From: a virus
Lineage: Duplodnaviria; Heunggongvirae; Uroviricota; Caudoviricetes
DNA length: 64,000 nt
Reading direction: 5' to 3' (one strand)
IMG/VR virus record: IMGVR_UViG_3300031784_000007
Every line of letters starts with the position of its first letter. The stretch's first letter is position 1. Made by a program: the position numbers and the translations under genes. Below, piece after piece: positions 23,224-61,983 of this stretch. The notes beneath the pieces were generated by a model. It saw nothing but the letters and a program-made list of their open reading frames with translations, did no database searches and was not told where the DNA came from.

Positions 23224-26200
23224 ATGAAAAAATTATTACTTTTAATGATGTTCTTGTTCAGTTTTTTAACTGTTCAGGCAACCCACATGATGGGTGCAGA
23301 TGTTTCCTACAAATGTTTAGGAAATGGAAAGTACAAAATAATTGCTAAAGTTTACCGAGATTGTAGAGGTGTGTCTATGGGTACACCGTCATTTGGCACT
23401 TATGCAGGATTAAATGGTGGAAATGGATGTGGTAGTTACACATTAAGTGGACTATCAAGGGTTTCAATTAAAGACGTAACAACAAGATGTTCAACAAGTA
23501 GTAATCCATGTGGTACCGCAAATTCCGCCTTTGCGAATAAAGGTGTTGAAGAACACACATTTGAAGCCACGATTGATTTTAATACGTCACCATTAAACAA
23601 TTTTGTAAATAAATCAACATGTTGTGAGGTTACATTTTATGTGAATGAGTGCTGTAGAAATGGTGGTATTACAACAGGACAGTCAAATCAAAACTTTTAC
23701 GCCACGGCAATGGTTAACATTTGTAACCTTCAAAAAATGAAGAACAAGTGTAACAGTTCACCACAATTATCTAACCCACCTATTGCCTTTTTATGTTGTA
23801 ATCAACCTTGGTATTACAATAATGGTGCGACTGACACAATAGATTATGATTCAATTTCATATAAGTTAGTAAATGGGCTTCAGGGTATTCCTAACAGTTC
23901 AGTTTCATATTCATCACCATTTACTGCTAGAGTGCCTATGACACCGTATTGTGTACCACCAACGACAATTAACTGTACACCAAACCCAAAAACAAACCCA
24001 CCAAGAGGTTTTTATTTTGATACAACAAATGGTGATATTATTACAACACCAACCAAATGTGATGAATCTGCGGTTATATGTGTTGAACAAACTGAATGGA
24101 GAAAAGACACGTCTGGTGTATGGCGTGTAATTGGTAGAACAAGACGTGACATGCAGGTATGGGTTAGGGATGATTGTGGATATAACAAAGCACCGACTTT
24201 GGGTCCCAAGTTTACTTACAAAGTATGTGAGGGTGAAACTTTGAAGTTTAAGGTTGAATCTGATGATGAAACTTTTACACCATATCAGACAACTCCTGAT
24301 ACAACAACAATGAAATGGAACAACGGTATTCCTGGCGCGAAGTTTACATTGGCGAATAAGAGTGATTGGCCAGAAAAAAGAAAGTCTTACGCAAACTTTG
24401 AATGGACACCGCCAATTGGTTCGGCTTCTGATATATCATATTCATTTACAGTTACCGTTAGTGACGAACACTGTGAACCACCAGCAACATCAATTCGTTC
24501 ATTTAAGATTAAGGTAAATCCAAAACCTACATCAAAACGTAGATATACCCAATTAAAATGTGGAAGGTTCGCCATGGAAGCGTATGAGTTATATGCCGCA
24601 ACAAGTTATTCATGGAGTGTTAGAGATACTTTGGCGAACGAGTTATTTTACTCTTCAAAGAAAACCGATACCATGAATTACTATTATGAAGGTAAGTATA
24701 TTATCATTCATAAATTAACAAGTGCCCAATCATGTGTTACGATTTATAGTGATACCGTTTATTTAACCCAACCACCAAAAGTTGTATTGGCAGATGCTGA
24801 TAGTTTTGCTTGTAAAGAAACTACATTTACATTGAAGGCTAAAGTAATTGCTGGTAAACCTACTTTGAAATACAAATGGAATAATGGTGATACCACCGAT
24901 TTCACAACGATTAAAAACTTCAAATCCGATTCAACATTGATGTTGGAAGTAACTGATGGTGATGGTTGTAAGTTCCGTGATACCACATTAACATTTGTTA
25001 AACCACTACCTGTTATTACTTTGGGTTCAGATAAGGTTATCTGTACCTATGAAACTAATACATTTGATGGTCAAAACAATGACACGGTAAAATACTTGTG
25101 GAGTACGGGTGATACAACTCGTTACATGACAACAAACCTAAAAGGTAGTTATTGGGTTAGAATTACTGATACGACATATCAGTGTGTGAAGTATGACACG
25201 GCAATACTTGTTGTGAATGATACTGTCATATCTAATGCTGGACCTAACCAATCAATATGTGATAAAGATACATTCACCTTGACTGCCAATCATAAACCAA
25301 CATCATTGACTCCTACATATACTTGGGGTGGATTAGGGAATTTATCAACCTATAAGTTAAAATCTGATATTACAAAGTTAACTTATATGTTTACATTGAA
25401 GACGGTGTTGACTCAAAACGGGCACACTTGTGAAGATATGGATACAATTTTTGTAAGGGTTAAACCATTACCAAAAATTGGTTGGGACCCAAAACCATTG
25501 AAACCTCAATGTTATTCTTATGGTAGTGTATGGATGGAACCATTCTTGGTTAAACCTCATAACTTTGGAACATATGAAATATGGAGCGGAAACAAAAATA
25601 AAATAGGAAACATTGTTACGAATCCATCTAACGGAAGGTTCCTATTCAACACAATATCAGTAGATAATAGTAAATTACAAGGAGGTAATAACTTTACTAC
25701 AAAAGTTTATGTTAAGTTTAACGATACAAATGGTTGTTCAAACATGGATTCAACAACACAAACAATATATGGTACACCCATTATCCAATTAAGAAAGGCG
25801 ACAGTATGTCAAGATATTGGGTCAATGATGATGGACAATTTGAGAGTAAGACCAGCAACCAAAAATGGTGTGAACATGTTATGGGAAGTTGTTAGAGCAC
25901 CTAATGGTGTGGACACATCTAAACTACTTTATAATATTTCTACGAACTCAATTCCAAACATTAGATTTAACTTTGGTGCACCTTCACAGGATTATTACAA
26001 AGGTTTGTACACTTTCAAACTTACCGTTAAAGATTTAATTACGGGTTGTCAAAGTACCGACACTGTTGATGTAAATATCATTACAGAACCTAAAGTTGAA
26101 TTGACAACCATACCTCTTTATTGTGAAAATTCAGGTGTGAGTATTAATTTATTTGATTACATTTTGGTGGATGGTGTTAAACCTACTCAAGGTACCATCT

Positions 26201-27759
26201 TTATTCAGGATAGGAATGGTGATAGAAATGACCCTAAAGTATCTACAGATATATCAACAGGTATATTCAAAACTAGTATAGGTGTAGGTAATTATAACAT
26301 TAAGTTTGTAAGTAACCTTATAGCTCCTGACCATTCAGTTACTTGTTCAAGAGTGGATAGTTTTGATGTGATTATTAGTTATAAACCTGACCTGAAAGTA
26401 ATAGGTATGGGTTTTTGTTCAACATATCCTTGGCCATATGAATTGAAAAATGTAATAACCGATGGTAGTTGGGGTGTGACAAAAATCACTTACCCTGATG
26501 GGGGACTTTTTACACCAACACCGAAGGCTAAAGGATATATCGGAGGTTTTAATAATCCTTACAAACTTATGATGGTTGGTGAAAGTCAATATGGTTGTAA
26601 AGATACTGAGATATTAAAACTAACAGTAATGAACCAACCTGAAATTAAGTTTGTTCCACCATTTGTGAGTTGTGGTAAAGATACTTGGACTCTAAAATTA
26701 GACACTGCAAACATTGACTCCGCAGTTAAATTCAGATGGGTAGTTAATACTAATCTTTATGATACTCTAACACCTCCTGGTGGTCAAATGATTGGTAACA
26801 AAAGAGGTTTTGGTAAAAAACAATACGTACCATCTGATAATGATACTGCAAGAGGATACTTTACGGTTAAATTCAAATCTTGGGACGCACCACTTTGTGC
26901 TAGAGTAATTGACAGTGTCAAGATTTTAATCACACCTTATCCTGAACCTGACTTCACCACAACAAATGGATGTCAACCACATTTTTCAACATTCACACCG
27001 ACTGAAAAACGCGGAATTAAATCAATTGAGTATTCGTGGGTTGTAAATGATACATTCTTACTAAGAGATAATTTTAGTTGGTCAAAAACTTTTAATAACT
27101 TTGGTTATTATAGAACATCATTAACAGCGGTTAATAACACGTTCTTTCCTGAAAAGATATGTGGAACATCTATAACAAAAACATTTGAAGTTTATCCAAA
27201 ACCAAGTGTTGTGTTTACTACTGACCCATTGTACAAAACAACGGTGGCATTACCTAAGTTTAAAACTATTAATACATCAAGTGTTAGTCAGAATCCATTT
27301 GTGACTAATATGAAGTACAATTGGACTTGGGGTAAATTATTTAAGATTGGTAGTGATACATTTAAGAATTCAAACATTGTATTTGGTAAAGATACGGGAA
27401 CTTATTGGATTAAGTTAGTTGTTACAACAGATAAAGGATGTAAAGACTCAACAATTAGTAGAGTACTAATTGGGCCTGACATAATTGTGTTTGTTCCTGA
27501 CGCTTTCACACCTGACAATGCAGGTCCAAATGAAAACAATACATTCAAACCATTCGTTATTAATAATAAAACATACGAAATGTTAATCTTTAACCGTTGG
27601 GGAGAAAAAATGTTTGAAACAACTGACCTTTCAAAAGGATGGGATGGAAACTATTTGGGTAAACCAGCACCCGATGGTGTATATGTGTATAAGATGATTG
27701 TAACTTCATTGGAAGATAAGGTTTTCCAATATAATGGAACTTTTACATTATTAAGATAA
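23224..27759 (+). CDS. giant Cys-rich cell-surface protein with signal peptide and T9SS type-B C-terminal domain (gliding-motility-associated CTD)
   Basis: 1511 aa; N-terminal signal MKKLLLLMMFLFSFLTVQA; C-terminus FVPDAFTPDNAGPNENNTFKPF...FNRWGEKMFET...GWDGNYLGKPAPDGVYVYKMIV matches the type-B CTD pattern (PNAFTPNGDGiND...NRWGe.vF...WdG...G.Y.Y). Confidence 0.8.
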   Translation: MKKLLLLMMFLFSFLTVQATHMMGADVSYKCLGNGKYKIIAKVYRDCRGVSMGTPSFGTYAGLNGGNGCGSYTLSGLSRVSIKDVTTRCSTSSNPCGTANSAFANKGVEEHTFEATIDFNTSPLNNFVNKSTCCEVTFYVNECCRNGGITTGQSNQNFYATAMVNICNLQKMKNKCNSSPQLSNPPIAFLCCNQPWYYNNGATDTIDYDSISYKLVNGLQGIPNSSVSYSSPFTARVPMTPYCVPPTTINCTPNPKTNPPRGFYFDTTNGDIITTPTKCDESAVICVEQTEWRKDTSGVWRVIGRTRRDMQVWVRDDCGYNKAPTLGPKFTYKVCEGETLKFKVESDDETFTPYQTTPDTTTMKWNNGIPGAKFTLANKSDWPEKRKSYANFEWTPPIGSASDISYSFTVTVSDEHCEPPATSIRSFKIKVNPKPTSKRRYTQLKCGRFAMEAYELYAATSYSWSVRDTLANELFYSSKKTDTMNYYYEGKYIIIHKLTSAQSCVTIYSDTVYLTQPPKVVLADADSFACKETTFTLKAKVIAGKPTLKYKWNNGDTTDFTTIKNFKSDSTLMLEVTDGDGCKFRDTTLTFVKPLPVITLGSDKVICTYETNTFDGQNNDTVKYLWSTGDTTRYMTTNLKGSYWVRITDTTYQCVKYDTAILVVNDTVISNAGPNQSICDKDTFTLTANHKPTSLTPTYTWGGLGNLSTYKLKSDITKLTYMFTLKTVLTQNGHTCEDMDTIFVRVKPLPKIGWDPKPLKPQCYSYGSVWMEPFLVKPHNFGTYEIWSGNKNKIGNIVTNPSNGRFLFNTISVDNSKLQGGNNFTTKVYVKFNDTNGCSNMDSTTQTIYGTPIIQLRKATVCQDIGSMMMDNLRVRPATKNGVNMLWEVVRAPNGVDTSKLLYNISTNSIPNIRFNFGAPSQDYYKGLYTFKLTVKDLITGCQSTDTVDVNIITEPKVELTTIPLYCENSGVSINLFDYILVDGVKPTQGTIFIQDRNGDRNDPKVSTDISTGIFKTSIGVGNYNIKFVSNLIAPDHSVTCSRVDSFDVIISYKPDLKVIGMGFCSTYPWPYELKNVITDGSWGVTKITYPDGGLFTPTPKAKGYIGGFNNPYKLMMVGESQYGCKDTEILKLTVMNQPEIKFVPPFVSCGKDTWTLKLDTANIDSAVKFRWVVNTNLYDTLTPPGGQMIGNKRGFGKKQYVPSDNDTARGYFTVKFKSWDAPLCARVIDSVKILITPYPEPDFTTTNGCQPHFSTFTPTEKRGIKSIEYSWVVNDTFLLRDNFSWSKTFNNFGYYRTSLTAVNNTFFPEKICGTSITKTFEVYPKPSVVFTTDPLYKTTVALPKFKTINTSSVSQNPFVTNMKYNWTWGKLFKIGSDTFKNSNIVFGKDTGTYWIKLVVTTDKGCKDSTISRVLIGPDIIVFVPDAFTPDNAGPNENNTFKPFVINNKTYEMLIFNRWGEKMFETTDLSKGWDGNYLGKPAPDGVYVYKMIVTSLEDKVFQYNGTFTLLR

Positions 27760-27760: not shown

Positions 27761-27967
27761 ATGAAGCTACATAAAATAATTTTGGCATGTATTTTATTAG
27801 TAGGGTGTGAAAAAGAACCAATACAAATAAACCCACCTAAAATTTTAAATAATTACCAAAATGAAGTTAAAACAATTTCTAAACCTAATTCAAAAAAGCG
27901 TAAATTGGGTAAAAGAACATTCCGTATTCCAAAAATTCTAAAAACAAAAACTAAAAACTATTTATAA
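27761..27967 (+). CDS. small lipoprotein (lipobox LLVGC)
   Basis: MKLHKIILACILLVGCEKEP. Confidence 0.35.
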   Translation: MKLHKIILACILLVGCEKEPIQINPPKILNNYQNEVKTISKPNSKKRKLGKRTFRIPKILKTKTKNYL

Positions 27968-27977: not shown

Positions 27978-28703
27978 ATGAAAAAAATAATATTATCGCT
28001 CGTTTTAGTTGGTATGATTGGTTTTATGGGTTGTGAAAAAGAACCTATACCAACACCAAACCCAACAGTTAATCTTTTGGTAGATGAAGAACCAAACGCT
28101 GTAGTAGATTCTATGGGTACCGTTATCTTTGATAACCCAATGACATCTGACATAACACCAACAACTGATGCAACAATAATGGATTATCCATTATTTTTGG
28201 ATTACGACCCATTTACAATGGTTACATCAAGAACTGGTAAAATTGATTCTTGTGTAAAAGGTATTGAAGTTACAAAGGCCGAAAAAGAACTTTTAACTAA
28301 GGCTCATTTAAATAAAGTTGAATGTCAAAAACAAAACAAAATAATTGTTGCAAGAATTAATAGAGAAATTGAAGGTTGGGCTAAAACACAAAAATATAAT
28401 TATTATGTAAATTGGTATATGGTTGAAAAATCAAAATTAGATTATGATTTAAAAATGGGTGTAATAACTGAATCCCAATATAAAGAAAAACTTACCACTT
28501 TAGAAAAAACATGGAAAAGTAAAATGTCCTATTTAAATAATCAGGTAAAAGAAAAAATCAAAACAAGTTTGGATAGAGCAACTGCGTGTGGTAAAATAAA
28601 AGATTGTGAAAAGGAGTATCTACATAAGGTGTTAGATATACTTGGTAAATCAAGATATAAGAAATGGATGGAGTGTCACAAACATAACTACAAAAAGAAA
28701 TAA
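27978..28703 (+). CDS. lipoprotein (lipobox FMGC)
   Basis: MKKIILSLVLVGMIGFMGCEKEP; 241 aa. Confidence 0.5.
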   Translation: MKKIILSLVLVGMIGFMGCEKEPIPTPNPTVNLLVDEEPNAVVDSMGTVIFDNPMTSDITPTTDATIMDYPLFLDYDPFTMVTSRTGKIDSCVKGIEVTKAEKELLTKAHLNKVECQKQNKIIVARINREIEGWAKTQKYNYYVNWYMVEKSKLDYDLKMGVITESQYKEKLTTLEKTWKSKMSYLNNQVKEKIKTSLDRATACGKIKDCEKEYLHKVLDILGKSRYKKWMECHKHNYKKK

Positions 28704-28754: not shown

Positions 28755-29435
28755 ATGAAAAAAAATATAATAGGAATTATCCTTTTAATTATTCTAATAA
28801 TTTTAAGTTTTATAGGTATTAGTTCAACCCTATATTCAAAACCCAATTTACCAAATGATACAATCATTGTAATACCAAAAGTTCAAGATACCGTTGTTAA
28901 TATTAACGGAAAATATGGAACTTTTATTGGTGATTCACACACATCAAATCATAATTCAGGATGGCAAGTTGTTGTTTGTAAAAAAACAGGTCTAAGAATG
29001 AATAATCTATCAGTTTCAGGTAAGACAACAGGTTGGATGCTTGAAACCGCAAAAACATCACTACATAAGGGTATTGATTATTGTTTTGTTTATGGTGGTG
29101 CCAACGATATGTTCACAAAATCAATAACACCTAAACGAGCAGTTTCTAATATTCAACAAATTGTTGACTTATGTCATACATATAACATTCGTTGTGTGGT
29201 TTTAACAGGTTTTGACCCTGTTAAATGTACAAGGACATCAAATCCCGCTTATGGTCCAAGATACGCTCAGTTTCAAAAAATGTTAATGGATTCAATATCA
29301 GGTGCAACTGTTGTTGATACACGTGTAATTGATAGAACAGGATGTTGGGACGAATTATGTCATATGAACCCTGAAGGTCACAAAAAAATTGGAATGAAAG
29401 TAATTCATGACATGAAATTTCATATTATCAGATAA
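28755..29435 (+). CDS. SGNH/GDSL-family hydrolase (esterase) with N-terminal membrane anchor
   Basis: FIGDSHT (GDS block I), GGANDM (block III), DELCHMNPEGH (DxxH block V). Confidence 0.6.
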   Translation: MKKNIIGIILLIILIILSFIGISSTLYSKPNLPNDTIIVIPKVQDTVVNINGKYGTFIGDSHTSNHNSGWQVVVCKKTGLRMNNLSVSGKTTGWMLETAKTSLHKGIDYCFVYGGANDMFTKSITPKRAVSNIQQIVDLCHTYNIRCVVLTGFDPVKCTRTSNPAYGPRYAQFQKMLMDSISGATVVDTRVIDRTGCWDELCHMNPEGHKKIGMKVIHDMKFHIIR

Positions 29436-31345: not shown

Positions 31346-31603
31346 ATGTTTAACAAATTTTATAAATTAGATTTTGGACTACAAATGATTATCACTTGTC
31401 TTGTCCTATTTTTTTCAAACCAACTTGTGTCATACACATTGAGTATGGCTAACGTTCCTAGTACAGTATCATTTAACGTGGGTGTTGTACTAACATTTAT
31501 ATTGTTTTTACTCCAAACAATATCAATTTATCTTGGAGCAATGGGAATTATTAACTACATAAAACAAACAAAAACAAAAAATAAAGATGAGCAATCTAAC
31601 TAA
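31346..31603 (+). CDS. small membrane protein (two TM segments)
   Basis: Hydrophobic segments. Confidence 0.4.
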   Translation: MFNKFYKLDFGLQMIITCLVLFFSNQLVSYTLSMANVPSTVSFNVGVVLTFILFLLQTISIYLGAMGIINYIKQTKTKNKDEQSN

Positions 31604-32441
31604 ACTTCTAATCGGAGTATCGGTACTGGTACTTTTGATTTTCGGGTTCACGGGATGTGAACGAATTGACGCAGGACACGTAGGTGTTAAAGTAAATCTT
31701 TACGGTGATGGTAAAGGTGTTGATGATGTAACTGAGGTTACAGGATGGGTATTGTATAACCCGATTTCAACCAAAATTGTTGAATTCCCAACTTATGTTC
31801 AACATAAAGAATATAAAAAAACTGAAGACGGTGTTGATGAATCTTTTGTGGTAAACTCTAAAGACGGTTCCGAGTTCCATTGTTCACCAATGGTAAACTA
31901 CGCAGTAAAACGTGAAAAGGTTCCTTATATATTTGCAAAATATCGTGTTGAGTTGGACCGAATTGAAGAAGGTTTCTTAAAGACATCTATCTTTGATGCG
32001 TTCCGTGTGGTAGCAAATAGTTACACAGCAGACGCTCTTATATCTAATAGACAAGAGTTTGAAATCAAAGTCCGACAGGTATTGGAAAAACAATTATCAC
32101 CTGAAGGATTTGTATTACAACAATTTACATCAAACTTAGTTTACCCTGAAACATTTAAGAAAGCGATTGAGGCTAAGAACAACGCTGTACAATCGGCACT
32201 TATGGCGGAAAATCAAGTTAAAACCGCTGAAGCACAAGCAAGAATTAAAATTGCAACCGCTGAAGGTAATGCACAGGCTTTGTTGACAAACGCAAGGGCT
32301 GAGGCGGAATCTAACAAATTGAGACAACAAACTTTAACACCGTTGTTGCTTCAACAAATGTGGATTGAAAAATGGGAAGGTAATGTTCCAAGTACTGTTC
32401 TCGGAAGTAACCAAAACCTAATGTTTGGATTAAATAAGTAA
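31587..32441 (+). CDS. SPFH/band-7 (HflK/C, prohibitin-like) membrane protein
   Basis: N-terminal TM, then C-terminal Ala/Glu-rich helix AEAQARIKIATAEGNAQALLTNARAEAESNKLRQQ typical of SPFH proteins. Confidence 0.65.
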   Translation: MSNLTKLLIGVSVLVLLIFGFTGCERIDAGHVGVKVNLYGDGKGVDDVTEVTGWVLYNPISTKIVEFPTYVQHKEYKKTEDGVDESFVVNSKDGSEFHCSPMVNYAVKREKVPYIFAKYRVELDRIEEGFLKTSIFDAFRVVANSYTADALISNRQEFEIKVRQVLEKQLSPEGFVLQQFTSNLVYPETFKKAIEAKNNAVQSALMAENQVKTAEAQARIKIATAEGNAQALLTNARAEAESNKLRQQTLTPLLLQQMWIEKWEGNVPSTVLGSNQNLMFGLNK

Positions 32442-52535: not shown

Positions 52536-52544
52536 CAAAAATAA

Positions 52545-52618: not shown

Positions 52619-52627
52619 CAAAAAAAT

Positions 52628-52703: not shown

Positions 52704-52738
52704 CAATTATTTTTTATTATCAACGTGTATTTATAGTT

Positions 52739-54746: not shown

Positions 54747-55196
54747 TCATTGTCCTTCATAATATTGTATCATTTTTTTTGCGTTATTTATTAACCAATT
54801 TTCAACATTAGGTATTCTTCTTAAAAATTCTAATTCAGTGTAATAACAGAAAACCTCTTCTTCAATTGGGGTATATTTTATTTTTTGTTTTATAATTCTT
54901 AAATGATGTGATTCATGTACTAAAATTGCTGAAATGTTGTTTAAACAACTATGGGTGGCATCTTTTCTTGTTATAACAACTGTTTGACTGTCCTCAACTG
55001 TTGAGAAGTTCCCATTCCAAAATGAAACATTCTTACAATACTTTAAAATAACATTATAATTTGTTGTATCATATTTTTTAACTATCTGAAGAGCTGAATC
55101 AACTCGTAGTCTCCAATTGTCGCCCACATCATCAATTTTTATTTGTGAATATCCAAATATTGGTATATAAAAAAGAATTAAAACTAACCACTTCAT
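54747..55196 (-). CDS. secreted protein with a possible HExxH motif (VHESHHL)
   Basis: Signal peptide MKWLVLILFYIPIFGYSQ. Confidence 0.45.
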   Translation of the reverse strand: MKWLVLILFYIPIFGYSQIKIDDVGDNWRLRVDSALQIVKKYDTTNYNVILKYCKNVSFWNGNFSTVEDSQTVVITRKDATHSCLNNISAILVHESHHLRIIKQKIKYTPIEEEVFCYYTELEFLRRIPNVENWLINNAKKMIQYYEGQ

Positions 55197-55264: not shown

Positions 55265-57163
55265 ATGCAAATGAAAAAAATTCTTTTATCATTAACGCTG
55301 GTTTGCGCTTCGCTGGTGAGTTACGCGCAAACATGTCCGACACCGTCCACGACGGCTGCTCACGTGACATTAGATTCAACTTACCAAACAGGTACCTATA
55401 GGTCTGGAAAAACAAACATAGGATTGTGTTGGTACAACAACACCTCAACAAACATTACGGCAACACAGTTTAGAGTATTCTACGATAAAACTGCGTTTGC
55501 TAAGGTTGATACTGTTACTTCGTTGAATACGTCGTTCTCACAGTATCTTCAGTATGTGGACAACCCAACAGGTGGATATGTAACAATTACTTTAACTTAC
55601 ACAGGTAATAATAGTAGTTTTACATTACCGAATGGTAAAATGTTCCAAGTTACTTTGAAACATTCATCAGTACTTGCAACAACATACTTTACCCCTACCG
55701 ATATGACATTTGGTGGAACCCCAACTTTTCCTCAGTTATCTACAACTCAGGCAGGTGCCGACTATGCGTTGACACTTAAAAACTTTGGTGGTGTTTTCAA
55801 ACCTCAGGTTATGTCATTTAAGGGTAAGTTTGTAAACGTTACTGGTACACCTTCAAAAAACTTGACAGTATCATTAGAGAAGAAACTTAAAACTTCTTCA
55901 ACATGGTCATATGTTCAAGATACCTTTACTAATAGTTTAGGTAAATTCTTCTTCACAGATGTTGCAATTGATACAACTGTTTGGGATGTAAGAATTGCAG
56001 TTAAAGGTGATACTATGGGTGTTGGAGCAATTGTTTCTACATCAGATGCACAAAGAATCAACCAATATGTATTGGGAACTCAGTCTATGACTGGTTTTGA
56101 TTACTATTCATCTGACGTAAACGGAGACAATTCAGTTTCAATCTCTGACGTTTATGGTGTTTACGCAAGAGTATCAGGTAGATTTACAACTTGGTCAAAT
56201 AGTGTTAAAGATGTTAAATTCTTTACAGTTTCTGAATACGACACTATTAACGGTTCGAGTAAAAACTACACAAGTACAATTGCGGGTGTAACAAACTTCA
56301 CATACCAAATCATCGCAGGTCAACCTGACTCTGTAACTTATTATGTTGTGTGTCCTGGTGATGCTAACGGAACAGGTTACAACAGAGCTCGTTTAACACC
56401 AATTCAAATTGTTAATCCAAACAATGCTAACAAACACATCATTGATGTAACTACAGCATATGATAACATTTTGGAAACTATTGAAGTTAACTACCCTAAA
56501 TTGGGTGTAGATGCTGGTGACGTGGTTAGAATTCCTGTAAAATTAAAAACAGGTGGTATTAACTTAGGTTCATTACAGATTTGTATGAAATACGATTCTA
56601 CTCTTTTAACTTTTAAAGGTGTAAAAAATGAAATGAAAACTTCTTATTGGATTTCTTTCATCAATACATCAAACAACATGGTTGAATGGGGTGGATATGA
56701 CCCATCTAATAACCAACACTTGGTTAACGATGGTGATTTGTTTTTTACATTAGAATTTGAATCTAAAAAACCACAGAACGAGTGGGGAAAAAGTCCATTG
56801 TATGTTCAAAGAAAATTTGCAGGTAACCCATTGGCAACTGATTTAAACATCACACCAACTGACGGAATCATTCAAGTTTTCAGAATGGGTGGTACAACAA
56901 ACAATTTCAAAGATATGATTTTATATCCTAACCCATTTGAGGGTGATGTAACAATTGGTTTTAAAATCTACAAAGAAGGTAAAAACATAATTGGTATTTA
57001 TGATATAAACGGAAAACAACAAATGGAAATTGTTGCAAACGAAACTAAAATTGGAATTTATTCAAACACAGTTGATTTGAGTTTTTTACCTCCAGGAACT
57101 TACTTGGCGGTTTTAAGAAACGAAGAAAAAACAACAACAAAAAAAGCAGTTAAAACTAAATAA
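55265..57163 (+). CDS. secreted protein with T9SS type-A C-terminal sorting domain (Por secretion CTD)
   Basis: Signal peptide; dockerin-like DVNGDNSVSISDVYGVY; C-terminus LYPNPFEGDVTIGF...IYDINGKQ...LPPGTYLAVL matches the type-A CTD. Confidence 0.75.
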   Translation: MQMKKILLSLTLVCASLVSYAQTCPTPSTTAAHVTLDSTYQTGTYRSGKTNIGLCWYNNTSTNITATQFRVFYDKTAFAKVDTVTSLNTSFSQYLQYVDNPTGGYVTITLTYTGNNSSFTLPNGKMFQVTLKHSSVLATTYFTPTDMTFGGTPTFPQLSTTQAGADYALTLKNFGGVFKPQVMSFKGKFVNVTGTPSKNLTVSLEKKLKTSSTWSYVQDTFTNSLGKFFFTDVAIDTTVWDVRIAVKGDTMGVGAIVSTSDAQRINQYVLGTQSMTGFDYYSSDVNGDNSVSISDVYGVYARVSGRFTTWSNSVKDVKFFTVSEYDTINGSSKNYTSTIAGVTNFTYQIIAGQPDSVTYYVVCPGDANGTGYNRARLTPIQIVNPNNANKHIIDVTTAYDNILETIEVNYPKLGVDAGDVVRIPVKLKTGGINLGSLQICMKYDSTLLTFKGVKNEMKTSYWISFINTSNNMVEWGGYDPSNNQHLVNDGDLFFTLEFESKKPQNEWGKSPLYVQRKFAGNPLATDLNITPTDGIIQVFRMGGTTNNFKDMILYPNPFEGDVTIGFKIYKEGKNIIGIYDINGKQQMEIVANETKIGIYSNTVDLSFLPPGTYLAVLRNEEKTTTKKAVKTK

Positions 57164-57230: not shown

Positions 57231-57563
57231 ATGAGTGAAGAACAAGAAACAAATGACAGTACTTGGTCAGGTTTAAAAAAAACAATTATCGGTACAATCG
57301 CAACAGCAGTTACGGCTGGTGGAGCATGGTTCACATCAACATTATTCGGTGGTGGTGATGACGAAGAAAAACCAAAAACAGAACAAGCACCTGCGGCAGC
57401 ACCTGTTATCAACTTAAGTGTTGACAATTCGTCAAAAAACACAGCAGGAGGTGGTGGCGGAACTACAACAGTTATCAAAGAAAAAACTGTTGTTGAAAAA
57501 CAAGCAGCACCAGCAGAATCTAAACCAGCAAAGAAAAGCGAAACTGAAGATGCGCCTTGGTAA
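57231..57563 (+). CDS. low-complexity Gly/Ala/Lys-rich small protein (uncertain)
   Basis: 110-aa ORF; the competing minus-strand ORF 57176-57616 was judged less likely. Confidence 0.3.
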   Translation: MSEEQETNDSTWSGLKKTIIGTIATAVTAGGAWFTSTLFGGGDDEEKPKTEQAPAAAPVINLSVDNSSKNTAGGGGGTTTVIKEKTVVEKQAAPAESKPAKKSETEDAPW

Positions 57564-58278
57564 TATACTAGTAGGTTTAACTTTATTATTTGCGAGTTGT
57601 GTATCAACACAACCACTAAGTGGGCAAATAGGTTCAGTTAAAACCGAAGAATATACCGCAGGATTTGAAAAGAAAAAATCTTTGGATTCATTACCTCCAT
57701 ACACAGATACAATTCAGATTCCAATACAAATTTTGAAAATTGGTATCAGTGAAGAAGTTTATGAGATGTACCCTGAGTTAAAAGACGCAAGAGTTGGTAT
57801 GGGTGTTACAAATATTGTTTTAGAATATTTGGAACAAACAGGAAGATTTGTTTTCACTGAAGACAAATTGGAAATAAAAGAAAGAATGGTTAACCAATTC
57901 AAAGCATCAAACAAAGGTTTTACTGAAAACAAAGTTGACGGTAAAGGTAAAATTAAGTTAGCAAAATACTTTGTCTACATTGAAGTTTATGACTTCTCTG
58001 TTGGTGAAGATGAGGTGGTTGAAACATCAGGTGTGACAATCAAACAAAATACACAACTTGGTTTACAAGTTAGATTTGTTGATGCAGAATCTGGTGAAGT
58101 TATCACAGGTAGTGGACAAGGAAAAGCGGTTACAACTAAAACATCATCAACTCTTGGTGATATTGATGGACCAAAATTCAATAAATCTACAGTTGGTGTA
58201 TCAACCAAAAAAGCATTAGAAACATCTACCGTAAGAGTGGTGGAAAAGTTGATAAAAAAAGGAGTATTTAAAAATTAA
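57550..58278 (+). CDS. outer-membrane lipoprotein, CsgG-like (tentative)
   Basis: Lipobox LLFASC; segments VLEYLEQTGRFVFTEDKLE and RFVDAESGEVITGSG resemble CsgG-family blocks. Confidence 0.4.
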   Translation: MRLGNILVGLTLLFASCVSTQPLSGQIGSVKTEEYTAGFEKKKSLDSLPPYTDTIQIPIQILKIGISEEVYEMYPELKDARVGMGVTNIVLEYLEQTGRFVFTEDKLEIKERMVNQFKASNKGFTENKVDGKGKIKLAKYFVYIEVYDFSVGEDEVVETSGVTIKQNTQLGLQVRFVDAESGEVITGSGQGKAVTTKTSSTLGDIDGPKFNKSTVGVSTKKALETSTVRVVEKLIKKGVFKN

Positions 58279-58279: not shown

Positions 58280-58645
58280 ATGGCTATTAAAGACAAAATC
58301 AAAAATTCATTGGGTTTAGATAAACCTGATTTCGTAAAAGTAGAAGACAAAAACAGATTCTACTACATGTTGCAACAAATGCAAAATAATAGATGGAAAA
58401 TCACCTTGGCGGTGTTGTTCTTATTCTTCTTCATTATCGCTGGTATTAATTCAGCGGTTTTCTTCGGTGTATCCATCGGTGAAGATTGGAAAGAATTGTT
58501 ATTAATCTTGTTAGGTGCTTTTGTTGGTAACTTAAACAAAGTTGTTGACTATTGGTTCAACTCTGAAGACAGAGACAAAATGTTGATTCAAAAAGTTGAC
58601 GAAGAAGATGGTCAATCTTTATCTAACGTAACATCAGTTGATTAA
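58280..58645 (+). CDS. membrane protein (two TM segments)
   Basis: 121-aa ORF. Confidence 0.4.
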   Translation: MAIKDKIKNSLGLDKPDFVKVEDKNRFYYMLQQMQNNRWKITLAVLFLFFFIIAGINSAVFFGVSIGEDWKELLLILLGAFVGNLNKVVDYWFNSEDRDKMLIQKVDEEDGQSLSNVTSVD

Positions 58646-60447
58646 TGAAGTGGATATTTTCAATATTATTATTGTTAGTATCCTCTGCTAGTTTTGGTCA
58701 GGGGTTCTCATATTCGTATGTGGACCCCTGTTCTAAAAAAACAAATACTGTTTACATACCTTCGGGTCAAAATTCAGTAACAATAAGTTATTATGGAGTA
58801 GCAAATACGTTTACTCAAGCCGATTTTCAAAACGGAACATTTTCAGCGTGGATGTATTCAGTATCCGCAGCATCAACACAACCATGTGAGGGTTTAAAAA
58901 CACAAACACAAACCAATACAAATCAAATTATTACCAATAACATTATTTCAACACTAACAAGTGTGACAGCAGCGGCAACAATGTCCGTAACGAGTTCAAT
59001 TAGTTCTGTTAGTTCTCAAAGTGCAGGAACTGCGTTAGGAAATAGTGTGAATAACTCATCAGATAACAGTAGTGGTGGGGGAAGTTCAAAAGAAAACAAA
59101 AATGGACAGAATAATTCAGGAAGTAAATCAAATAATCAAGAAAGTGGAACCTCAGGACAACCTCAAGGAGGTGGAACAACAACTAATTCAACTCAAGGGT
59201 CTAATAAGACAGAAGGAGGAAGCTCATCAGGTACAAATCAATCAACTGAAGGAGGAAATCAACCGTCTGGCTCACCTGTAGGGGGTAATACGGCTCAAAA
59301 TCAACCAAATACGAGCCCAAATACAAATAAAACTGAGCCCAATACAGGGAATTCAGGGTCAAATACGGGGAATTCAGGTAATACCACACAATCAGGTCAA
59401 AATACAGGTAATAATACCCAATCGGGTACAAATACAGGGTCAAATGGGGGAAATAATACCCAATCGGGTACAAATACAGGGAATTCGGGGTCAAATACAA
59501 ATAATACAGGTGGTTCCGGTGGTACAAATACGGGGAATACAGGGTCAAATACGGGGAATTCAGGTTCTGGTGGTGGAAATACAGGGAATTCGGGGTCAAA
59601 TACAAATAATACAGGCGGTTCCGGTGGTTCGGGAGGTGGAACTGATACAAAAACCAACACAACAGACCCTACAACGACTCCTACGGACAGTAAATCAGGT
59701 GGGAATGGTGGAACCACCAACTCAGTTGCAAACGCTGCTGAGGCCTCATCAGGTGGTTCAACATCAAATGCATCAGAAGGTAGTGGTGGTGGAGGTAAAG
59801 GAGGCGCAAAATCAAATATTAGAGTGGGTTCAATCATTGGAACTGGTGATATTGTTGCAATTAGAAGTGCTGAAGATAATGCGAACTCATTTAAGGCAAC
59901 AATGTCTGTTACAAAATCAAATACTGATAATTCAAGAGCTAAGGGAGCTTTATTAAATTTTACAACCGCAATCAATAACTCAAATCTTACTTTTTACGGA
60001 GCGTTTACGAATAAAGCTAAATCAAATACTCTAATTTGCGCCAATTCAACAATGATTAACTTTAATTATGATTTGTTTAATACAACAACAGTTCTTGAAT
60101 CTCACAGATTTAACAAATTTTCACTTATGGGTGGTCTTAACTACACCATAGGTTCAATGGCTGAAACATCATTTAATAATATTTCAGCTGTTGGTGGTGG
60201 TTTTTACATGTTTAAAGTTAGTAAAAACTTATCAGGTAATATGTTGTTATTGGCGGTATATTCACCTTTTACAAAATTCTATGAAGGTACTTGGTGGCAA
60301 TCAGGAACATTGTTAGTCCCATTTAGTTCTTGGGATTATTCAATTTCAAAAAACTTTAAATATAATGTCAGTTTCTCAGGAACATGGGAAGTTGGTAAAT
60401 CTGTATTACAATATCAGATATTAACAGGTGGTAAAATAATGTTATAA
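58645..60447 (+). CDS. secreted protein with a long Gly/Ser/Asn/Thr low-complexity repeat region and a C-terminal beta-rich (OMP-like) domain
   Basis: Signal peptide MKWIFSILLLLVSSASFGQ; DNA tandem repeats at 59330-59650. Confidence 0.5.
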   Translation: MKWIFSILLLLVSSASFGQGFSYSYVDPCSKKTNTVYIPSGQNSVTISYYGVANTFTQADFQNGTFSAWMYSVSAASTQPCEGLKTQTQTNTNQIITNNIISTLTSVTAAATMSVTSSISSVSSQSAGTALGNSVNNSSDNSSGGGSSKENKNGQNNSGSKSNNQESGTSGQPQGGGTTTNSTQGSNKTEGGSSSGTNQSTEGGNQPSGSPVGGNTAQNQPNTSPNTNKTEPNTGNSGSNTGNSGNTTQSGQNTGNNTQSGTNTGSNGGNNTQSGTNTGNSGSNTNNTGGSGGTNTGNTGSNTGNSGSGGGNTGNSGSNTNNTGGSGGSGGGTDTKTNTTDPTTTPTDSKSGGNGGTTNSVANAAEASSGGSTSNASEGSGGGGKGGAKSNIRVGSIIGTGDIVAIRSAEDNANSFKATMSVTKSNTDNSRAKGALLNFTTAINNSNLTFYGAFTNKAKSNTLICANSTMINFNYDLFNTTTVLESHRFNKFSLMGGLNYTIGSMAETSFNNISAVGGGFYMFKVSKNLSGNMLLLAVYSPFTKFYEGTWWQSGTLLVPFSSWDYSISKNFKYNVSFSGTWEVGKSVLQYQILTGGKIML

Positions 60448-60451: not shown

Positions 60452-60907
60452 ATGAAAAACACAATTATACTATTAGGTATTATACTCACGGGTATAATCA
60501 ACCTAAACGCACAGGACTGTTACACAGTCAAAGAAGTTAACAACAAAACTGAAAATCCTGACCTTTCATCAAAAAGATTCACTTTCGGTATAAAACAAAT
60601 GACTGAAGAGTTGTTGGGTGAAAAATTTACAATCTGTACTGATGGTAAACCTGTTGTAGTTAACATCACATCAATTGAAGCTCCGACTGTTGGTATTAAC
60701 ATTGGTCCGTTTATGATTAGAAAGAAAAATACAATTGTAAAAACCGAAATCGTTATCAATGATAAAGTTTATGTTGGTGAGGGTACCGCAAAACTTTCAG
60801 TTAAAGCATCTTTTGCAGAATTAAAAGATGAAAATTTACCATTTGAAAAAAGCGTTTTTGCATCAGCAGTTAAAAAATCATTACAAGACGGTATTTCTAA
60901 AATATAA
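60452..60907 (+). CDS. secreted hypothetical protein
   Basis: Signal peptide; 151 aa. Confidence 0.45.
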   Translation: MKNTIILLGIILTGIINLNAQDCYTVKEVNNKTENPDLSSKRFTFGIKQMTEELLGEKFTICTDGKPVVVNITSIEAPTVGINIGPFMIRKKNTIVKTEIVINDKVYVGEGTAKLSVKASFAELKDENLPFEKSVFASAVKKSLQDGISKI

Positions 60908-61983
60908 TGAAGTGGATTATATTCATATTAACTTTTTTCATATCACTGAAGTCATATTCTCAATCACCATTATGTGCTAGTAGACCAACAAGTTTTTGTT
61001 GTGAATATGTTTCAAGTGTGAGTATTAATGGAAAAACATTTGCAGGAAGTACAGGATTTAGTAATACATCTGGTGGTAGTCCTGCGGGTTATTATGATTA
61101 TACATACACCAAAGATACTGTCCCAAGAATTAAAGCGGGTCAAAGTATTTCTATTTCATATACAGGGGTTACCAACGGTAACTACATGGAGTATTTCAAA
61201 CTATGGATTGATTTTAACGGTAATGGTGTTTTAACCGATGCCGGTGAGTTGGTCCATAGTTCTAATTATCAATGGACAGGTACCAAAACAGTTACCGCAA
61301 GTTTCACCGTTCCAACATCTGTTTATAACGGTGAAGTATATATGAGATTTGTAATGCAATATTCAGGTTCTCCTGTAATATGTGGTACATACTCATATGG
61401 AAATACATTTGATTTCAAAACAAGAATTGTAGGTGCGACTGACCCATTTAGTTATACAGGATATATCTATAATTCAGAAGGAACTGGTATTCAAAGTATT
61501 CCCGTAGAGTTATATAGTAAATTAAAAACTGATGTTACTTACACTTCTTTAAATAGCGTAACAACAGATGCAAATGGTAAGTTTAGTTTAAGTTCAACTA
61601 GAGACGCTACCTTATATGATTTTCAATTGAGAATCAGTACTCTAACAATATCATCACCAATTGTTAATGATGCAAAATTATTTAATACTAAAGTAATTGA
61701 ACAATCGTTTAATTCACGTGATTATTATAGAATGGATGTTAATAATGATGATAATTTATCTATAACAGATGTTTATGTAATTTATATGAAAATTATTGGT
61801 GTTGGTTGGAAATCAGGTGTTGTTAATTATAGAATTTTTACACCGACTGAATGGAGTACAATCAGTACATCAACAAGTAATTTGAAATCAACCTATTCAG
61901 GGACACAAACCATTACAGTCAATGGGTTAACAAATAAAGGTAGCTCTAATTACTATTTAGTGAGAACAGGATATAGATTCTAA
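60907..61983 (+). CDS. secreted protein with a dockerin-like Ca-binding motif and a CarbopepD_reg-like segment
   Basis: Signal peptide MKWIIFILTFFISLKSYSQ; DVNNDDNLSITDVYVIY parallels the motif in 55265-57163; TDANGKFSLSS. Confidence 0.5.
   Translation: MKWIIFILTFFISLKSYSQSPLCASRPTSFCCEYVSSVSINGKTFAGSTGFSNTSGGSPAGYYDYTYTKDTVPRIKAGQSISISYTGVTNGNYMEYFKLWIDFNGNGVLTDAGELVHSSNYQWTGTKTVTASFTVPTSVYNGEVYMRFVMQYSGSPVICGTYSYGNTFDFKTRIVGATDPFSYTGYIYNSEGTGIQSIPVELYSKLKTDVTYTSLNSVTTDANGKFSLSSTRDATLYDFQLRISTLTISSPIVNDAKLFNTKVIEQSFNSRDYYRMDVNNDDNLSITDVYVIYMKIIGVGWKSGVVNYRIFTPTEWSTISTSTSNLKSTYSGTQTITVNGLTNKGSSNYYLVRTGYRF

What the first reader, a model, noticed from the sequence alone, without database searches (positions are those of the whole stretch)
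23224..61983. Phage-encoded T9SS cargo proteins and a block of secreted, lipo- and outer-membrane-type proteins
The 1511-aa Cys-rich protein ends in a textbook type-B T9SS CTD. The 632-aa protein at 55265 ends in a type-A CTD. Both have Bacteroidetes signal peptides. Around them are lipobox lipoproteins (27761, 27978, 57550 CsgG-like), an SGNH esterase, three MKW(I/L)-initiated secreted proteins, two proteins sharing a dockerin-like DVNxDxxxSIxDVY motif, and a repeat-rich OMP-like protein. T9SS substrates are strictly host-exported. A phage carrying its own cargo implies it decorates or remodels the host surface during infection, for example superinfection exclusion, receptor masking or biofilm changes. 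Alternatively it implies a prophage or megaphage lifestyle with lysogenic conversion.
Basis: partly seen in the sequence, partly recalled or inferred. Interest (0 to 1): 0.65.

Follow-up and report, generated by a model that had tools for sequence, protein, structure and literature searches.

The report
Phage-encoded T9SS surface-protein cassette
A large T4-like phage of aquatic Flavobacteria-type bacteria carries its own set of secreted proteins, two of them bearing genuine type IX secretion tags, apparently to re-dress the surface of the cell it infects; the idea has one published precedent, but this cassette is new.

Summary
The 1511-aa protein scores above the curated cut-off for the T9SS type B sorting domain. 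The 632-aa protein does the same for type A. Both tags lie at the extreme C-terminus, and both proteins start with a signal peptide.

The contig is a real phage, not a chimera. Identical genes keep the same neighbours in many independent assemblies. Terminase, T4 portal, prohead protease and gp23 capsid genes lie just left of the window.

- **1511-aa protein:** it is a captured host gene. Full-length chromosomal homologues in Bacteroidota reach 41-47% identity. The phage copies (54-92%) form one clade under purifying selection. The family shares Ig-like repeats and the CTD with the Aureispira grappling-hook protein GhpA.
- **632-aa protein:** it combines a cohesin, a dockerin-like module and the type A CTD. 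It heads a conserved cassette that also occurs in cultured Flavobacterium phage immuto. There the cohesin-CTD part is a separate secreted protein.
- **Other calls:** "CsgG-like" is supported only at family level. "OMP-like" is unproven. A prophage or lysogenic-conversion reading has no support.

Phage-encoded T9SS cargo was already reported by Bellas et al. 2020, so this is a new variant of a known kind. Export and function remain untested.

The parts
23224..27759 (+). 1511-aa secreted SprB/GhpA-like adhesin. Signal peptide aa 1-20, Cys-rich head about aa 21-330, Ig/PKD-like repeats, T9SS type B CTD aa 1424-1511 (nt 27493-27756).
   Evidence: TIGR04131 42.8 bits (cut-off 35), PF13585 39.7, PKD_4 33.6. 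Family profile against PDB GhpA: E 1.8e-105, including CTD to CTD at 36.3 bits. dN/dS 0.04-0.2.
27761..27967 (+). 68-aa lipoprotein (lipobox LVGC, then EKEP).
   Evidence: Sequence and heuristic. Weak N-terminal PHROG Rz-like spanin hit, E 0.007.
27978..28703 (+). 241-aa lipoprotein (lipobox FMGC, then EKEP) with a Lys-rich helical C-terminus.
   Evidence: Conserved at 65-95% in related phages L009, L010 and L025.
28755..29435 (+). 226-aa SGNH/GDSL esterase with a long N-terminal hydrophobic signal-anchor.
   Evidence: PF13472 51.3 bits, cut-off 32.9. Homologues in L013, L011 and L025.
31587..32441 (+). 284-aa SPFH/Band_7 lipoprotein (lipobox FTGC).
   Evidence: PF01145 72.7 bits. Lipobox.
40053..40652 (+). 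199-aa secreted non-specific DNA/RNA endonuclease. In phage immuto it is adjacent to the cassette.
   Evidence: PF01223 85 bits. Signal peptide. 52% identity to immuto gp12.
54747..55196 (-). 149-aa secreted protein (signal peptide GYS|Q) with an HESHH (HExxH) motif. First gene of the cassette.
   Evidence: Weak DUF2268 hit. Conserved in L014 (83%) and L024 (41%).
55265..57163 (+). 632-aa scaffold. Signal peptide (SYA|Q), N-terminal beta domain, transthyretin-like domain, dockerin-like module aa 257-297 (nt 56033-56155), cohesin about aa 400-540, T9SS type A CTD aa 553-630 (nt 56921-57154).
   Evidence: TIGR04183 38.9 bits (cut-off 23), PF18962 43.4. Cohesin Pfam hit in 14 of 25 orthologues, best E 4.9e-14. 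Foldseek finds cohesins at probability 1.00, rmsd about 2.5 A. dN/dS 0.07.
57231..57563 (+). 110-aa single-pass membrane protein with a disordered Pro/Ala/Gly-rich tail. Overlaps the next gene by 14 nt.
   Evidence: Sequence. Conserved in L014, L024 and immuto.
57550..58278 (+). 242-aa lipoprotein (lipobox FASC) of the CsgG/LpoB superfamily.
   Evidence: PF03783 18.4 bits, below the cut-off of 20.8. 15 of 33 homologues hit CsgG, best 1.9e-17. Profile against PDB CsgG: E 0.0011. 63% identity to immuto gp17.
58280..58645 (+). 121-aa protein with two predicted transmembrane segments.
   Evidence: Sequence. 76% identity in L024.
58645..60447 (+). 600-aa secreted protein. Signal peptide (SFG|Q), small N-domain, about 260 aa of G/N/S/T low-complexity sequence, conserved beta-rich C-terminal domain about aa 390-600. 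Possible outer-membrane barrel, unproven.
   Evidence: No Pfam or PHROG hit. AF2 mean pLDDT 35 with long beta-hairpins at 446-594. The immuto homologue ends ...GGKLTF.
60452..60907 (+). 151-aa secreted protein (signal peptide LNA|Q).
   Evidence: 46% identity to immuto gp19.
60907..61983 (+). 358-aa secreted protein. Signal peptide (SYS|Q), GEVED domain, transthyretin-like domain, dockerin-like module (DVNNDDNLSITDVY, nt about 61720-61791). No CTD. Proposed ligand of the cohesin.
   Evidence: PF20009 52.8 bits. Paralogous to aa 1-365 of the 632-aa protein, E 3e-19. Motif.
21334..21729 (+). 131-aa secreted protein (signal peptide LFG|Q), just outside the stated range.

Best explanation
The window is part of a large T4-like phage (at least 193 kb) that infects a T9SS-bearing Bacteroidota host, most likely Flavobacteriales. 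The phage encodes a conserved envelope-targeted secretome.

Two members are true T9SS substrates.

1. **The 1511-aa protein.** It is a host-derived adhesin of the SprB/GhpA type. It has a disulfide-rich head, an Ig-like stem and an 'orphan' type B CTD. It is exported by Sec and translocated by the host T9SS. It would then be held on the surface by whichever host PorP/SprF-type shuttle serves the host's own homologue. That makes it a mimic or competitor of a host surface protein.
2. **The 632-aa protein.** It is exported through Sec, PorV and the T9SS by its type A CTD. It displays a cohesin. The cohesin is proposed to capture dockerin-tagged secreted phage proteins: the GEVED protein here, and C-type-lectin or Laminin_G proteins in strain variants and relatives. 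The result would be a modular, strain-variable, carbohydrate-binding coat on the infected cell.

Likely purposes are changing adhesion and masking or replacing receptors, that is, superinfection exclusion and avoidance of progeny loss on debris.

- **Shown:** the domains, the signals, the phage origin, the host ancestry, the conservation and the purifying selection.
- **Inferred:** actual export, surface anchoring, cohesin-dockerin pairing and the biological purpose.
For: **Sorting signals**
- Both CTD HMMs score above their curated cut-offs, at the extreme C-terminus.
- Signal peptides are conserved in all homologues.
- Six of eight SPase I sites follow the Bacteroidetes Q-rule (PMC5837995).
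- Many of the 41 Cys are invariant between phage and bacterial homologues, which fits an extracytoplasmic protein.

**Phage identity**
- Terminase_6N, Portal_T4, Peptidase_S77 and Gp23 lie next to the identical window gene.
- The same synteny is seen in at least eight independent assemblies.

**Host origin of the 1511-aa gene**
- P0072, P0090 and P0092 (41-47% identity, full length) sit among gyrB, CPSase and ClpXP on contigs of up to 814 kb.
- Phage copies at 54% identity or more form one clade.
- The genome scan returned almost only Bacteroidota MAGs, many of them Flavobacteriales; two low-identity hits were binned as Burkholderiales.

**Selection**
- dN/dS is 0.04-0.2, including over the CTDs.

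**Adhesin-like nature**
- The family profile matches GhpA Ig repeats and its CTD (bioRxiv 10.1101/2024.01.29.577165).

**Cohesin and dockerin**
- Cohesin evidence.
- The dockerin-like EF-hand loop D-x-N-x-D-x6-D is present in both proteins.
- In phage immuto the cohesin-CTD part is a separate protein with its own signal peptide. The dockerin-like module there is carried by a lectin protein.

**Conservation and variability**
- The cassette is conserved from 99% down to 28-76% identity.
- It varies between strains: lectin gene present or absent, 151-aa gene swapped.

**Literature**
- Precedent and mechanism: PMC7468147, PMC9143113, PMC12618676.
Against: - There are no expression, localisation or secretion data, and the host is unknown.
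- No PorP/SprF-like gene is detectable in the window, so type B anchoring depends on an unidentified host shuttle.
- The window's own 632-aa sequence does not reach any reportable Pfam Cohesin hit.
- Its Dockerin_1 score is below the cut-off, and only one Ca-loop is canonical.
- The AF2 model is of low confidence (mean pLDDT 59).
- In Flavobacterium many type A cargos are released rather than anchored (general knowledge).
- Some cassette members (110-aa membrane protein, lipoprotein, 121-aa two-TM protein) could equally belong to lysis functions.
Confidence: 0.6

Rival explanations
1. Virion or structural decoration. The Ig-like, PKD and CTD beta-sandwiches are capsid or tail-fibre decorations (Hoc-like). 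The 'CTD' is only a re-used fold and is not used for secretion.
For: Ig-like domains are common on virions. crAss-like phages have T9SS-domain ORFs near head genes (PMC6949934). The structural module lies just left of the window.
Against: Cleavable signal peptides are conserved in every phage and bacterial homologue, with Q-rule cleavage sites. The proteins are rich in invariant Cys. The genes lie 22-55 kb from the structural block, among tRNA and nucleotide-metabolism genes. Chromosomal homologues stand alone in bacterial genomes.
Confidence: 0.07
2. Assembly chimera, host contamination, or a prophage inside a bacterial chromosome with lysogenic conversion.
For: The 1511-aa gene has close bacterial homologues. 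Composition is typical of Bacteroidota (about 32% GC).
Against: Identical genes lie in identical order across both junctions in independent JGI, ENA and NCBI assemblies. GC is uniform apart from the tRNA block. Relatives are on IMG/VR contigs of 233-295 kb. T4-like hallmark genes are contiguous. No bacterial housekeeping genes flank the region. No integrase appeared among the proteins scanned.
Confidence: 0.02
3. Secreted auxiliary enzymes for nutrient scavenging. The nuclease, the SGNH esterase, the HExxH protein and the lectin or cohesin-bound proteins would harvest extracellular polymers to fuel a long replication cycle in a large phage.
For: There is a secreted Endonuclease_NS (85 bits), an SGNH esterase and an HExxH motif. 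Cryophage's T9SS cargos are glycoside hydrolases. The nuclease is adjacent to the cassette in immuto.
Against: The two T9SS cargos here carry no catalytic domain. They are adhesin-like and scaffold-like, with PKD/Ig, cohesin, GEVED and lectin domains.
Confidence: 0.15
4. Part of the block is lysis or envelope-disruption machinery rather than surface decoration. Candidates are the 110-aa type II membrane protein with the overlapping lipoprotein (a spanin-like arrangement), the 121-aa two-TM holin-like protein, and the 68-aa and 241-aa lipoproteins.
For: The membrane-protein and lipoprotein genes overlap by 14 nt. The 68-aa lipoprotein gives a weak PHROG Rz-like spanin hit, E 0.007. A transglycosylase with an N-terminal anchor and an M23 peptidase are in the window.
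Against: The lipoprotein is 242 aa and CsgG/LpoB-like, which is not spanin-like. Its lipobox is not conserved in immuto. The 110-aa tail is disordered rather than coiled-coil. This rival says nothing about the two CTD proteins.
Confidence: 0.2
5. Recently captured, selectively neutral host DNA (passenger morons) with no function in the phage.
For: The 1511-aa gene clearly has host ancestry.
Against: There is strong purifying selection. The phage copies form one clade spanning 54-92% identity. The cassette is retained in phages as distant as Immutovirus, whose capsid protein is 42% identical.
Confidence: 0.04

Closest known systems
'Cryophage' T9SS cargo genes (Bellas et al. 2020, Nat Commun, PMC7468147)
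   Same: A Bacteroidota phage encodes proteins with T9SS type A sorting domains. The genes lie in strain-variable islands. A GDSL lipase gene is also present. The same hypotheses were proposed: surface modification, superinfection exclusion, extra enzymes.
   Different: Cryophage is an unrelated 76-kb circular phage. Its cargos are glycoside hydrolases and a PA14 protein, and only type A CTDs were reported. Here the phage is T4-like and at least 193 kb. It has a type B cargo of host ancestry, a cohesin/dockerin scaffold, and a cassette shared with a cultured phage.
GhpA grappling hook and SprB gliding adhesin (T9SS type B substrates; PDB 9flp; bioRxiv 10.1101/2024.01.29.577165; PMC9143113)
   Same: Sec signal peptide, adhesin head, disulfide-bonded Ig-like repeat stem and type B CTD. 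The family profile matches the GhpA repeats and its CTD.
   Different: The protein is 1511 aa rather than 5898 or 6497 aa. The head domain is unrelated (no match before profile position about 394). No adjacent PorP/PorE (GhpB/C, SprF) genes. The single window sequence gives no PDB hit at E 0.001 or better. It is encoded by a phage.
Cellulosomal cohesin-dockerin scaffoldins (e.g. C. thermocellum CipA and OlpC; PDB 1aoh, 4dh2)
   Same: Cohesin fold (Foldseek probability 1.00, rmsd 2.4-2.7 A). A dockerin-like helix-loop-helix with a D-x-N-x-D-x6-D Ca-loop. The architecture pairs a surface-anchored scaffold with tagged subunits.
   Different: Anchoring is by a T9SS CTD instead of SLH or sortase. 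Only one canonical Ca-loop is present. The tagged proteins are lectin, GEVED or Laminin_G modules, not CAZymes. Binding is untested.
Flavobacterium phage vB_FspM_immuto (Immutovirus, MW353176)
   Same: It carries the same cassette in the same order: secreted nuclease, lectin with dockerin-like module, the N-part of the scaffold, cohesin-CTD, 103-aa protein, CsgG-like protein, 474-aa protein, 151-aa protein (30-63% identity). Its gp23 is 42% identical.
   Different: The genome is 160 kb. The scaffold is split into two separately secreted proteins. The CsgG-like protein lacks a lipobox. tblastn found no homologue of the 1511-aa type B protein in GenBank phages other than two huge uncultured phages. 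The genes are annotated only as hypothetical, cohesin or lectin.
CsgG curli secretion channel (PF03783; PDB 3x2r, 4q79)
   Same: Outer-membrane lipoprotein. Family-level sequence similarity.
   Different: The window protein scores below the Pfam cut-off. No CsgA/B/E/F-like partners were detected. The LpoB family also matches 7 of 33 homologues.

Membership tests
T9SS type A cargo (TIGR04183 / PF18962) | C-terminal sorting domain scoring above the curated cut-off, located at the extreme C-terminus | tested here: met
   632-aa protein: 38.9 bits (cut-off 23) and 43.4 bits (cut-off 27), at aa 553-630 of 632. 25 of 25 orthologues hit.
T9SS type A cargo (TIGR04183 / PF18962) | N-terminal Sec signal peptide | tested here: met
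   MQMKKILLSLTLVCASLVSYA|QT passes the hydrophobicity and -3/-1 heuristic and exposes Q at +1. No SignalP run was possible.
T9SS type A cargo (TIGR04183 / PF18962) | T9SS-dependent secretion, with PorV shuttle and PorU cleavage, in a host that has PorK/L/M/N and SprA | not testable with these tools
   The host is unknown. The host of the cultured relative is a Flavobacterium, a genus known to have a T9SS (general knowledge).
T9SS type B cargo (TIGR04131 / PF13585 CHU_C) | Type B C-terminal domain above the curated cut-off at the extreme C-terminus, plus a signal peptide | tested here: met
   42.8 bits (cut-off 35) and 39.7 bits (cut-off 27), at aa 1424-1511. Signal peptide MKKLLLLMMFLFSFLTVQA|TH is conserved. 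The CTD aligns to the GhpA CTD at 36.3 bits.
T9SS type B cargo (TIGR04131 / PF13585 CHU_C) | Cognate PorP/SprF-like shuttle gene linked to the cargo gene. This is frequent but not universal: 'orphan' type B cargos exist (PMC12618676). | tested here: not met
   No PorP_SprF hit in any secreted window protein. None lies next to the bacterial homologues in L021, L022 or L026.
SprB/GhpA-like Ig-repeat adhesins | Tandem Cys-containing Ig-like stem repeats homologous to GhpA or SprB | tested here: met
   Family profile A3 against 9flp_A: E 1.8e-105 over 20 stretches. The single window sequence gives no hit at E 0.001 or better.
SprB/GhpA-like Ig-repeat adhesins | Giant size (over 5000 aa), adjacent PorP/PorE genes, filament or heptamer formation | tested here: not met
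   The protein is 1511 aa and there are no adjacent PorP/PorE genes. Oligomerisation cannot be tested here.
Cohesin (PF00963) | Cohesin domain by HMM on the protein itself | tested here: not met
   No Cohesin hit for the window protein at E 1 or better.
Cohesin (PF00963) | Cohesin domain in orthologues and a cohesin fold in the model | tested here: met
   14 of 25 orthologues hit, best E 4.9e-14. Foldseek finds 1aoh, 4dh2 and 6kgf at probability 1.00, rmsd 2.4-2.7 A over about 105 columns. The model pLDDT there is only 55-70.
Dockerin type I (PF00404) | Two duplicated Ca-binding loop-helix segments, with an HMM score above the cut-off | tested here: inconclusive
   17.9 bits against a cut-off of 22.9. 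22 of 25 orthologues hit weakly, best 1.2e-4. One canonical D-x-N-x-D-x6-D loop is present and the first segment is degenerate. Three helices are modelled at aa 259-303.
Dockerin type I (PF00404) | Ca-dependent binding to a cohesin | not testable with these tools
   Indirect support only: the scaffold is split into separate secreted proteins in immuto.
CsgG (PF03783) | HMM score above the gathering cut-off | tested here: inconclusive
   Window protein: 18.4 bits against 20.8. 15 of 33 homologues hit, best 1.9e-17, and LpoB hits 7 of 33. Profile against PDB CsgG: E 0.0011.
CsgG (PF03783) | Curli partners (CsgA/B subunits, CsgE/F) | tested here: not met
   No such Pfam hits in neighbouring genes.
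Outer-membrane beta-barrel protein (600-aa protein) | A recognisable barrel family, a confident barrel model, and a C-terminal aromatic beta-signal | tested here: inconclusive
   No Pfam or PHROG hit. AF2 mean pLDDT 35, with beta-hairpins only. The window protein ends in ...KIML and the immuto homologue in ...KLTF.
SGNH/GDSL hydrolase | HMM score above the cut-off | tested here: met
   PF13472: 51.3 bits against 32.9.
T4-like (gp23-type) tailed phage | Terminase, T4-type portal, prohead protease and gp23 capsid gene on the same contig | tested here: met
   L015-L017: Terminase_6N, Portal_T4, Peptidase_S77 and Gp23 lie directly beside the identical copy of window gene 1283-2614.

The most novel reading that the evidence does not exclude
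The cassette is a phage-built, modular surface-display system. A cohesin is anchored to the infected cell through the host T9SS. It captures interchangeable dockerin-tagged lectin, GEVED or Laminin_G 'heads' that are swapped between phage strains. A host-mimicking SprB/GhpA-like type B adhesin works alongside it. Together they would re-programme what the infected cell sticks to, or which phages can still adsorb. This would be a cellulosome-like principle used by a virus. The CsgG-like and 600-aa proteins may form a dedicated outer-membrane component.
Probability: 0.25. Interest if true: 0.8.

Novelty: new variant of a known kind. Interest (0 to 1): 0.55.

Why it matters
T9SS-secreted surface proteins drive gliding, adhesion and polymer degradation in Bacteroidota. 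In Flavobacterium they are linked to phage sensitivity.

This finding would extend phage takeover from metabolism to the cell surface, for three reasons:
- The phage lineage is widespread. Identical genes occur in dozens of assemblies.
- The lineage conserves its own T9SS cargos under purifying selection.
- One of those cargos is a mimic of a host adhesin.

It also gives a tractable test system. The cultured phage immuto with Flavobacterium sp. LMO8 carries the same cassette. The cohesin/dockerin arrangement suggests a testable protein-protein interaction.

Tried and rejected
- **Nucleotide search:** megablast of 25 kb against GenBank phages gave no match.
- **Nearby large ORF:** tblastn of a large nearby ORF (645 aa) against phages gave no match.
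- **Hallmark genes:** PHROG and Pfam scans of the big left-hand ORFs found no hallmark gene inside the window. Phage identity had to come from walking off the window edge.
- **PorP/SprF partner for the type B cargo:** none was found. I had suspected the 600-aa C-terminal domain, but it has no Pfam hit and the AF2 model was too poor (mean pLDDT 35) to justify a fold search.
- **PHROGs:** no family covers any cassette protein.
- **Single-sequence PDB search:** the 1511-aa protein alone gave nothing. Only the family profile found GhpA.
- **AF2 model of the 632-aa protein:** only moderate confidence (mean pLDDT 59). It was used solely for the cohesin-fold match.
- **Primary Immutovirus paper (Hoetzinger 2021):** not held in the library.
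- **Chimera and prophage readings:** rejected, as explained under the rival explanations.
- **thyA intron:** Rfam found no group I intron at thyA.

Full report
**1. What is in the sequence**

The window is about 32% GC and gene-dense. It carries 32 tRNA genes. Every ORF named in the finding exists at the stated coordinates.

- 1511-aa protein (23224-27759): TIGR04131 (T9SS type B) scores 42.8 bits against a curated cut-off of 35, at aa 1424-1511. PF13585 scores 39.7 against 27.
- 632-aa protein (55265-57163): TIGR04183 (type A) scores 38.9 bits against 23, at aa 553-630. PF18962 scores 43.4 against 27.

Both proteins begin with classic signal peptides. By a simple heuristic, about 16 of roughly 69 genes in the window have export-type N-termini. 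These include four with lipoboxes. Six of the eight predicted SPase I sites expose Gln at +1. That is the Bacteroidetes 'Q-rule' (PMC5837995), also noted for P. gingivalis phages in PMC10367356.

Other confirmed features:
- The SGNH esterase (51.3 bits), a secreted Endonuclease_NS (85 bits) and a GEVED domain (52.8 bits) are solid.
- The dockerin-like motif occurs exactly twice in the six-frame translation. It lies within a paralogous stretch between the two proteins, E 3e-19.

**2. It is a phage and not a chimera**

No hallmark gene lies inside the window. However, the identical copy of window gene 1283-2614 sits directly beside Terminase_6N, Portal_T4, Peptidase_S77 (prohead protease), Gp23 capsid and a bS21 gene. 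This is seen on 109-kb and 120-kb contigs from different projects.

Proteins identical to the two CTD proteins occur with the same neighbours across both suspect junctions. This holds in at least eight independent JGI, ENA and NCBI assemblies. The longest contigs are 174 kb and 193 kb.

Relatives of the 1511-aa gene (63-90% identity) lie on IMG/VR contigs of up to 295 kb. The capsid protein is 42-44% identical to those of Flavobacterium phage immuto, Microcystis phage Mel-JY01 and a 484-kb uncultured phage.

No prophage features were seen.

**3. The type B protein is a captured host gene kept by the phage lineage**

More than 100 full-length homologues exist.
- Bacterial context was verified for three of them. 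P0072 (47% identity) lies among gyrB and FtsX. P0090 (45%) lies on an 814-kb contig with CPSase and FTHFS. P0092 (41%) lies beside ClpXP and trigger factor.
- Phage context was verified for P0051 (68%) and P0068 (54%).

In a neighbour-joining tree, all sequences at 54% identity or more form one clade nested among the bacterial ones. This is consistent with a single old capture. A scan of GTDB genomes found relatives almost only in Bacteroidota MAGs: Flavobacteriales, Cryomorphaceae, Crocinitomicaceae and others. Two low-identity hits (26%) lay on contigs binned as Burkholderiales.

Within the phages, the signal peptide, the Cys-rich head and the CTD are the best-conserved parts (78% identity). 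The region at aa 901-1200 is the most variable (50%). dN/dS is 0.04-0.2 throughout, including over the CTD.

A family profile hits the solved Aureispira grappling-hook protein GhpA at E 1.8e-105. The match covers repeated Ig-like stem domains plus CTD to CTD at 36.3 bits. The single window sequence does not reach significance. GhpA and SprB are Sec/T9SS type B adhesins (bioRxiv 10.1101/2024.01.29.577165). The protein is therefore best described as a short SprB/GhpA-type surface adhesin.

No PorP/SprF gene accompanies it, either in the phage or next to the bacterial homologues. That makes it an 'orphan' type B cargo, a class known to use a shared host shuttle (PMC12618676; PMC9143113). It follows, by inference, that the phage protein would use, and compete for, the shuttle of the host's own homologue.

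**4. The type A protein is a cohesin/dockerin scaffold at the head of a conserved cassette**

The family is very large: 1914 proteins had E 1e-5 or better among the 8000 candidates scored. Among 25 orthologues:
- Por_Secre_tail hits 25;
- Dockerin_1 hits 22, weakly;
- Cohesin hits 14, best E 4.9e-14;
- Transthyretin hits 10.

The window protein itself misses Cohesin. Its AF2 model (mean pLDDT 59) nevertheless retrieves cellulosomal cohesins at probability 1.00 and rmsd about 2.5 A.

The genes 149 (HExxH), 632, 110, 242, 121, 600 and 151 recur in near-identical order in L014 (82-99% identity). They also recur, with the 121-aa gene moved next to the 632-aa gene, in a distant phage, L024 (28-76%). 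In L024 the type B gene, a second type A gene and a lectin/Laminin_G gene sit next to the cassette.

Strain variants of this same phage insert a 555-aa Lectin_C/Laminin_G_3 gene and swap the 151-aa gene. The region is therefore a flexible island, as in Cryophage.

The cultured Flavobacterium phage immuto carries the same cassette:
- a secreted nuclease (52% identity);
- a C-type-lectin protein with the dockerin-like module;
- the N-terminal part of the scaffold;
- a 243-aa cohesin-plus-CTD protein with its own signal peptide;
- then the homologues of the 110-aa, 242-aa (63%), 600-aa and 151-aa proteins.

The split of scaffold and cohesin-CTD into two secreted proteins argues that they associate non-covalently. 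So does the presence of dockerin-like tags on different 'head' domains. Binding itself is untested.

**5. The weaker claims**

- 'CsgG-like' holds at family level only.
- 'OMP-like' for the 600-aa protein is undecided.
- Some small membrane and lipoprotein genes could instead be lysis functions.

**6. Comparison with what is known**

Phage-encoded T9SS cargo has been published. Cryophage is a 76-kb Bacteroidetes phage with three variable type A cargos. It was called 'a unique occurrence', and the same functional guesses were made (PMC7468147). T9SS-domain ORFs have also been noted in crAss-like phages (PMC6949934).

I found no report of the following:
- a type B cargo in a phage;
- host-adhesin mimicry;
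- the cohesin/dockerin arrangement;
- the cassette shared with Immutovirus.

PHROGs has no family for any cassette member. tblastn also found weak matches (31-32% identity over about a fifth of the protein, including its C-terminal region) in two uncultured phages of about 640 kb.

**7. Verdict**

The cargo is real and encoded by the phage, and surface remodelling is plausible. The lysogeny and chimera alternatives are rejected.
- This is a new variant of a known kind.
- Interest is moderate, because export, anchoring and purpose are all still inferred.

Noticed in passing
window 12343-12735 (+): Rfam tmRNA match (53.6 bits, gathering score 47) that ARAGORN did not call. It may be a phage-encoded tmRNA.
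   Followed up: no
window 45783-45855 (+): A tRNA with a CTA anticodon, which looks like an amber suppressor. TAG ends only 1 of about 69 genes (14320-14958). The neighbouring structural genes are intact under code 11, so no recoding is evident.
   Followed up: partly
window 52217-52279 (+): Rfam 'freshwater-1 RNA' motif (RF02979, 73.8 bits against 72) embedded in the tRNA array.
   Followed up: no
window 45706-52704 and 62756-63685: Thirty-two tRNA genes by ARAGORN, 31 of them in these two blocks and one at 14163-14249. They include three tRNA-Met copies in the main block plus one at 62756, and one call with an odd anticodon loop at 48123-48203.
   Followed up: no
window 33436-35422 (+): A thymidylate synthase (389 aa) is followed by an I-TevI-like GIY-YIG homing endonuclease. 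The endonuclease's last residues (SHSSIKAPLSN) echo the ThyA C-terminus (SHSKIYFPLSN). This suggests an intron or homing-endonuclease insertion with a duplicated exon end. No Rfam group I intron hit was found at the gathering threshold.
   Followed up: partly
L015 16036-16230 (just left of the window): A ribosomal protein bS21 gene lies between the portal and prohead-protease genes of this phage.
   Followed up: no
window 54747-55196 (-): A small secreted protein with an HESHH (HExxH) motif and a weak DUF2268 'Zn-dependent protease' hit. It is conserved at the head of the cassette.
   Followed up: partly
L018 7498-9165, L019 7053-8720, L024 16798-18465: A 555-aa Lectin_C/Laminin_G_3 gene is present in strain variants and relatives but absent from the window between 61983 and 62042. 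In L024 it carries the dockerin-like motif.
   Followed up: partly
window 7092-9176 (+), 35944-37596 (-), 29454-30485 (+): A ClpB/ClpA-like double AAA+ protein (PHROG 4871, E 1e-241), a PPK2 polyphosphate kinase fusion and a T4-type RNA ligase. These are typical auxiliary genes of large phages.
   Followed up: no
window 23146-23183: A GC-rich hairpin followed by a T-run (ccccatcaaaagtgggg + tttttttt) lies directly upstream of the 1511-aa gene. This suggests the gene starts its own transcription unit.
   Followed up: no
1511-aa gene compared with L010 and L024: Divergence is mosaic. Against L010 the CTD is far more conserved than the head (pN 0.055 against 0.228). Against L024 the pattern is reversed (0.177 against 0.053). 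This hints at recombination among phage alleles.
   Followed up: no
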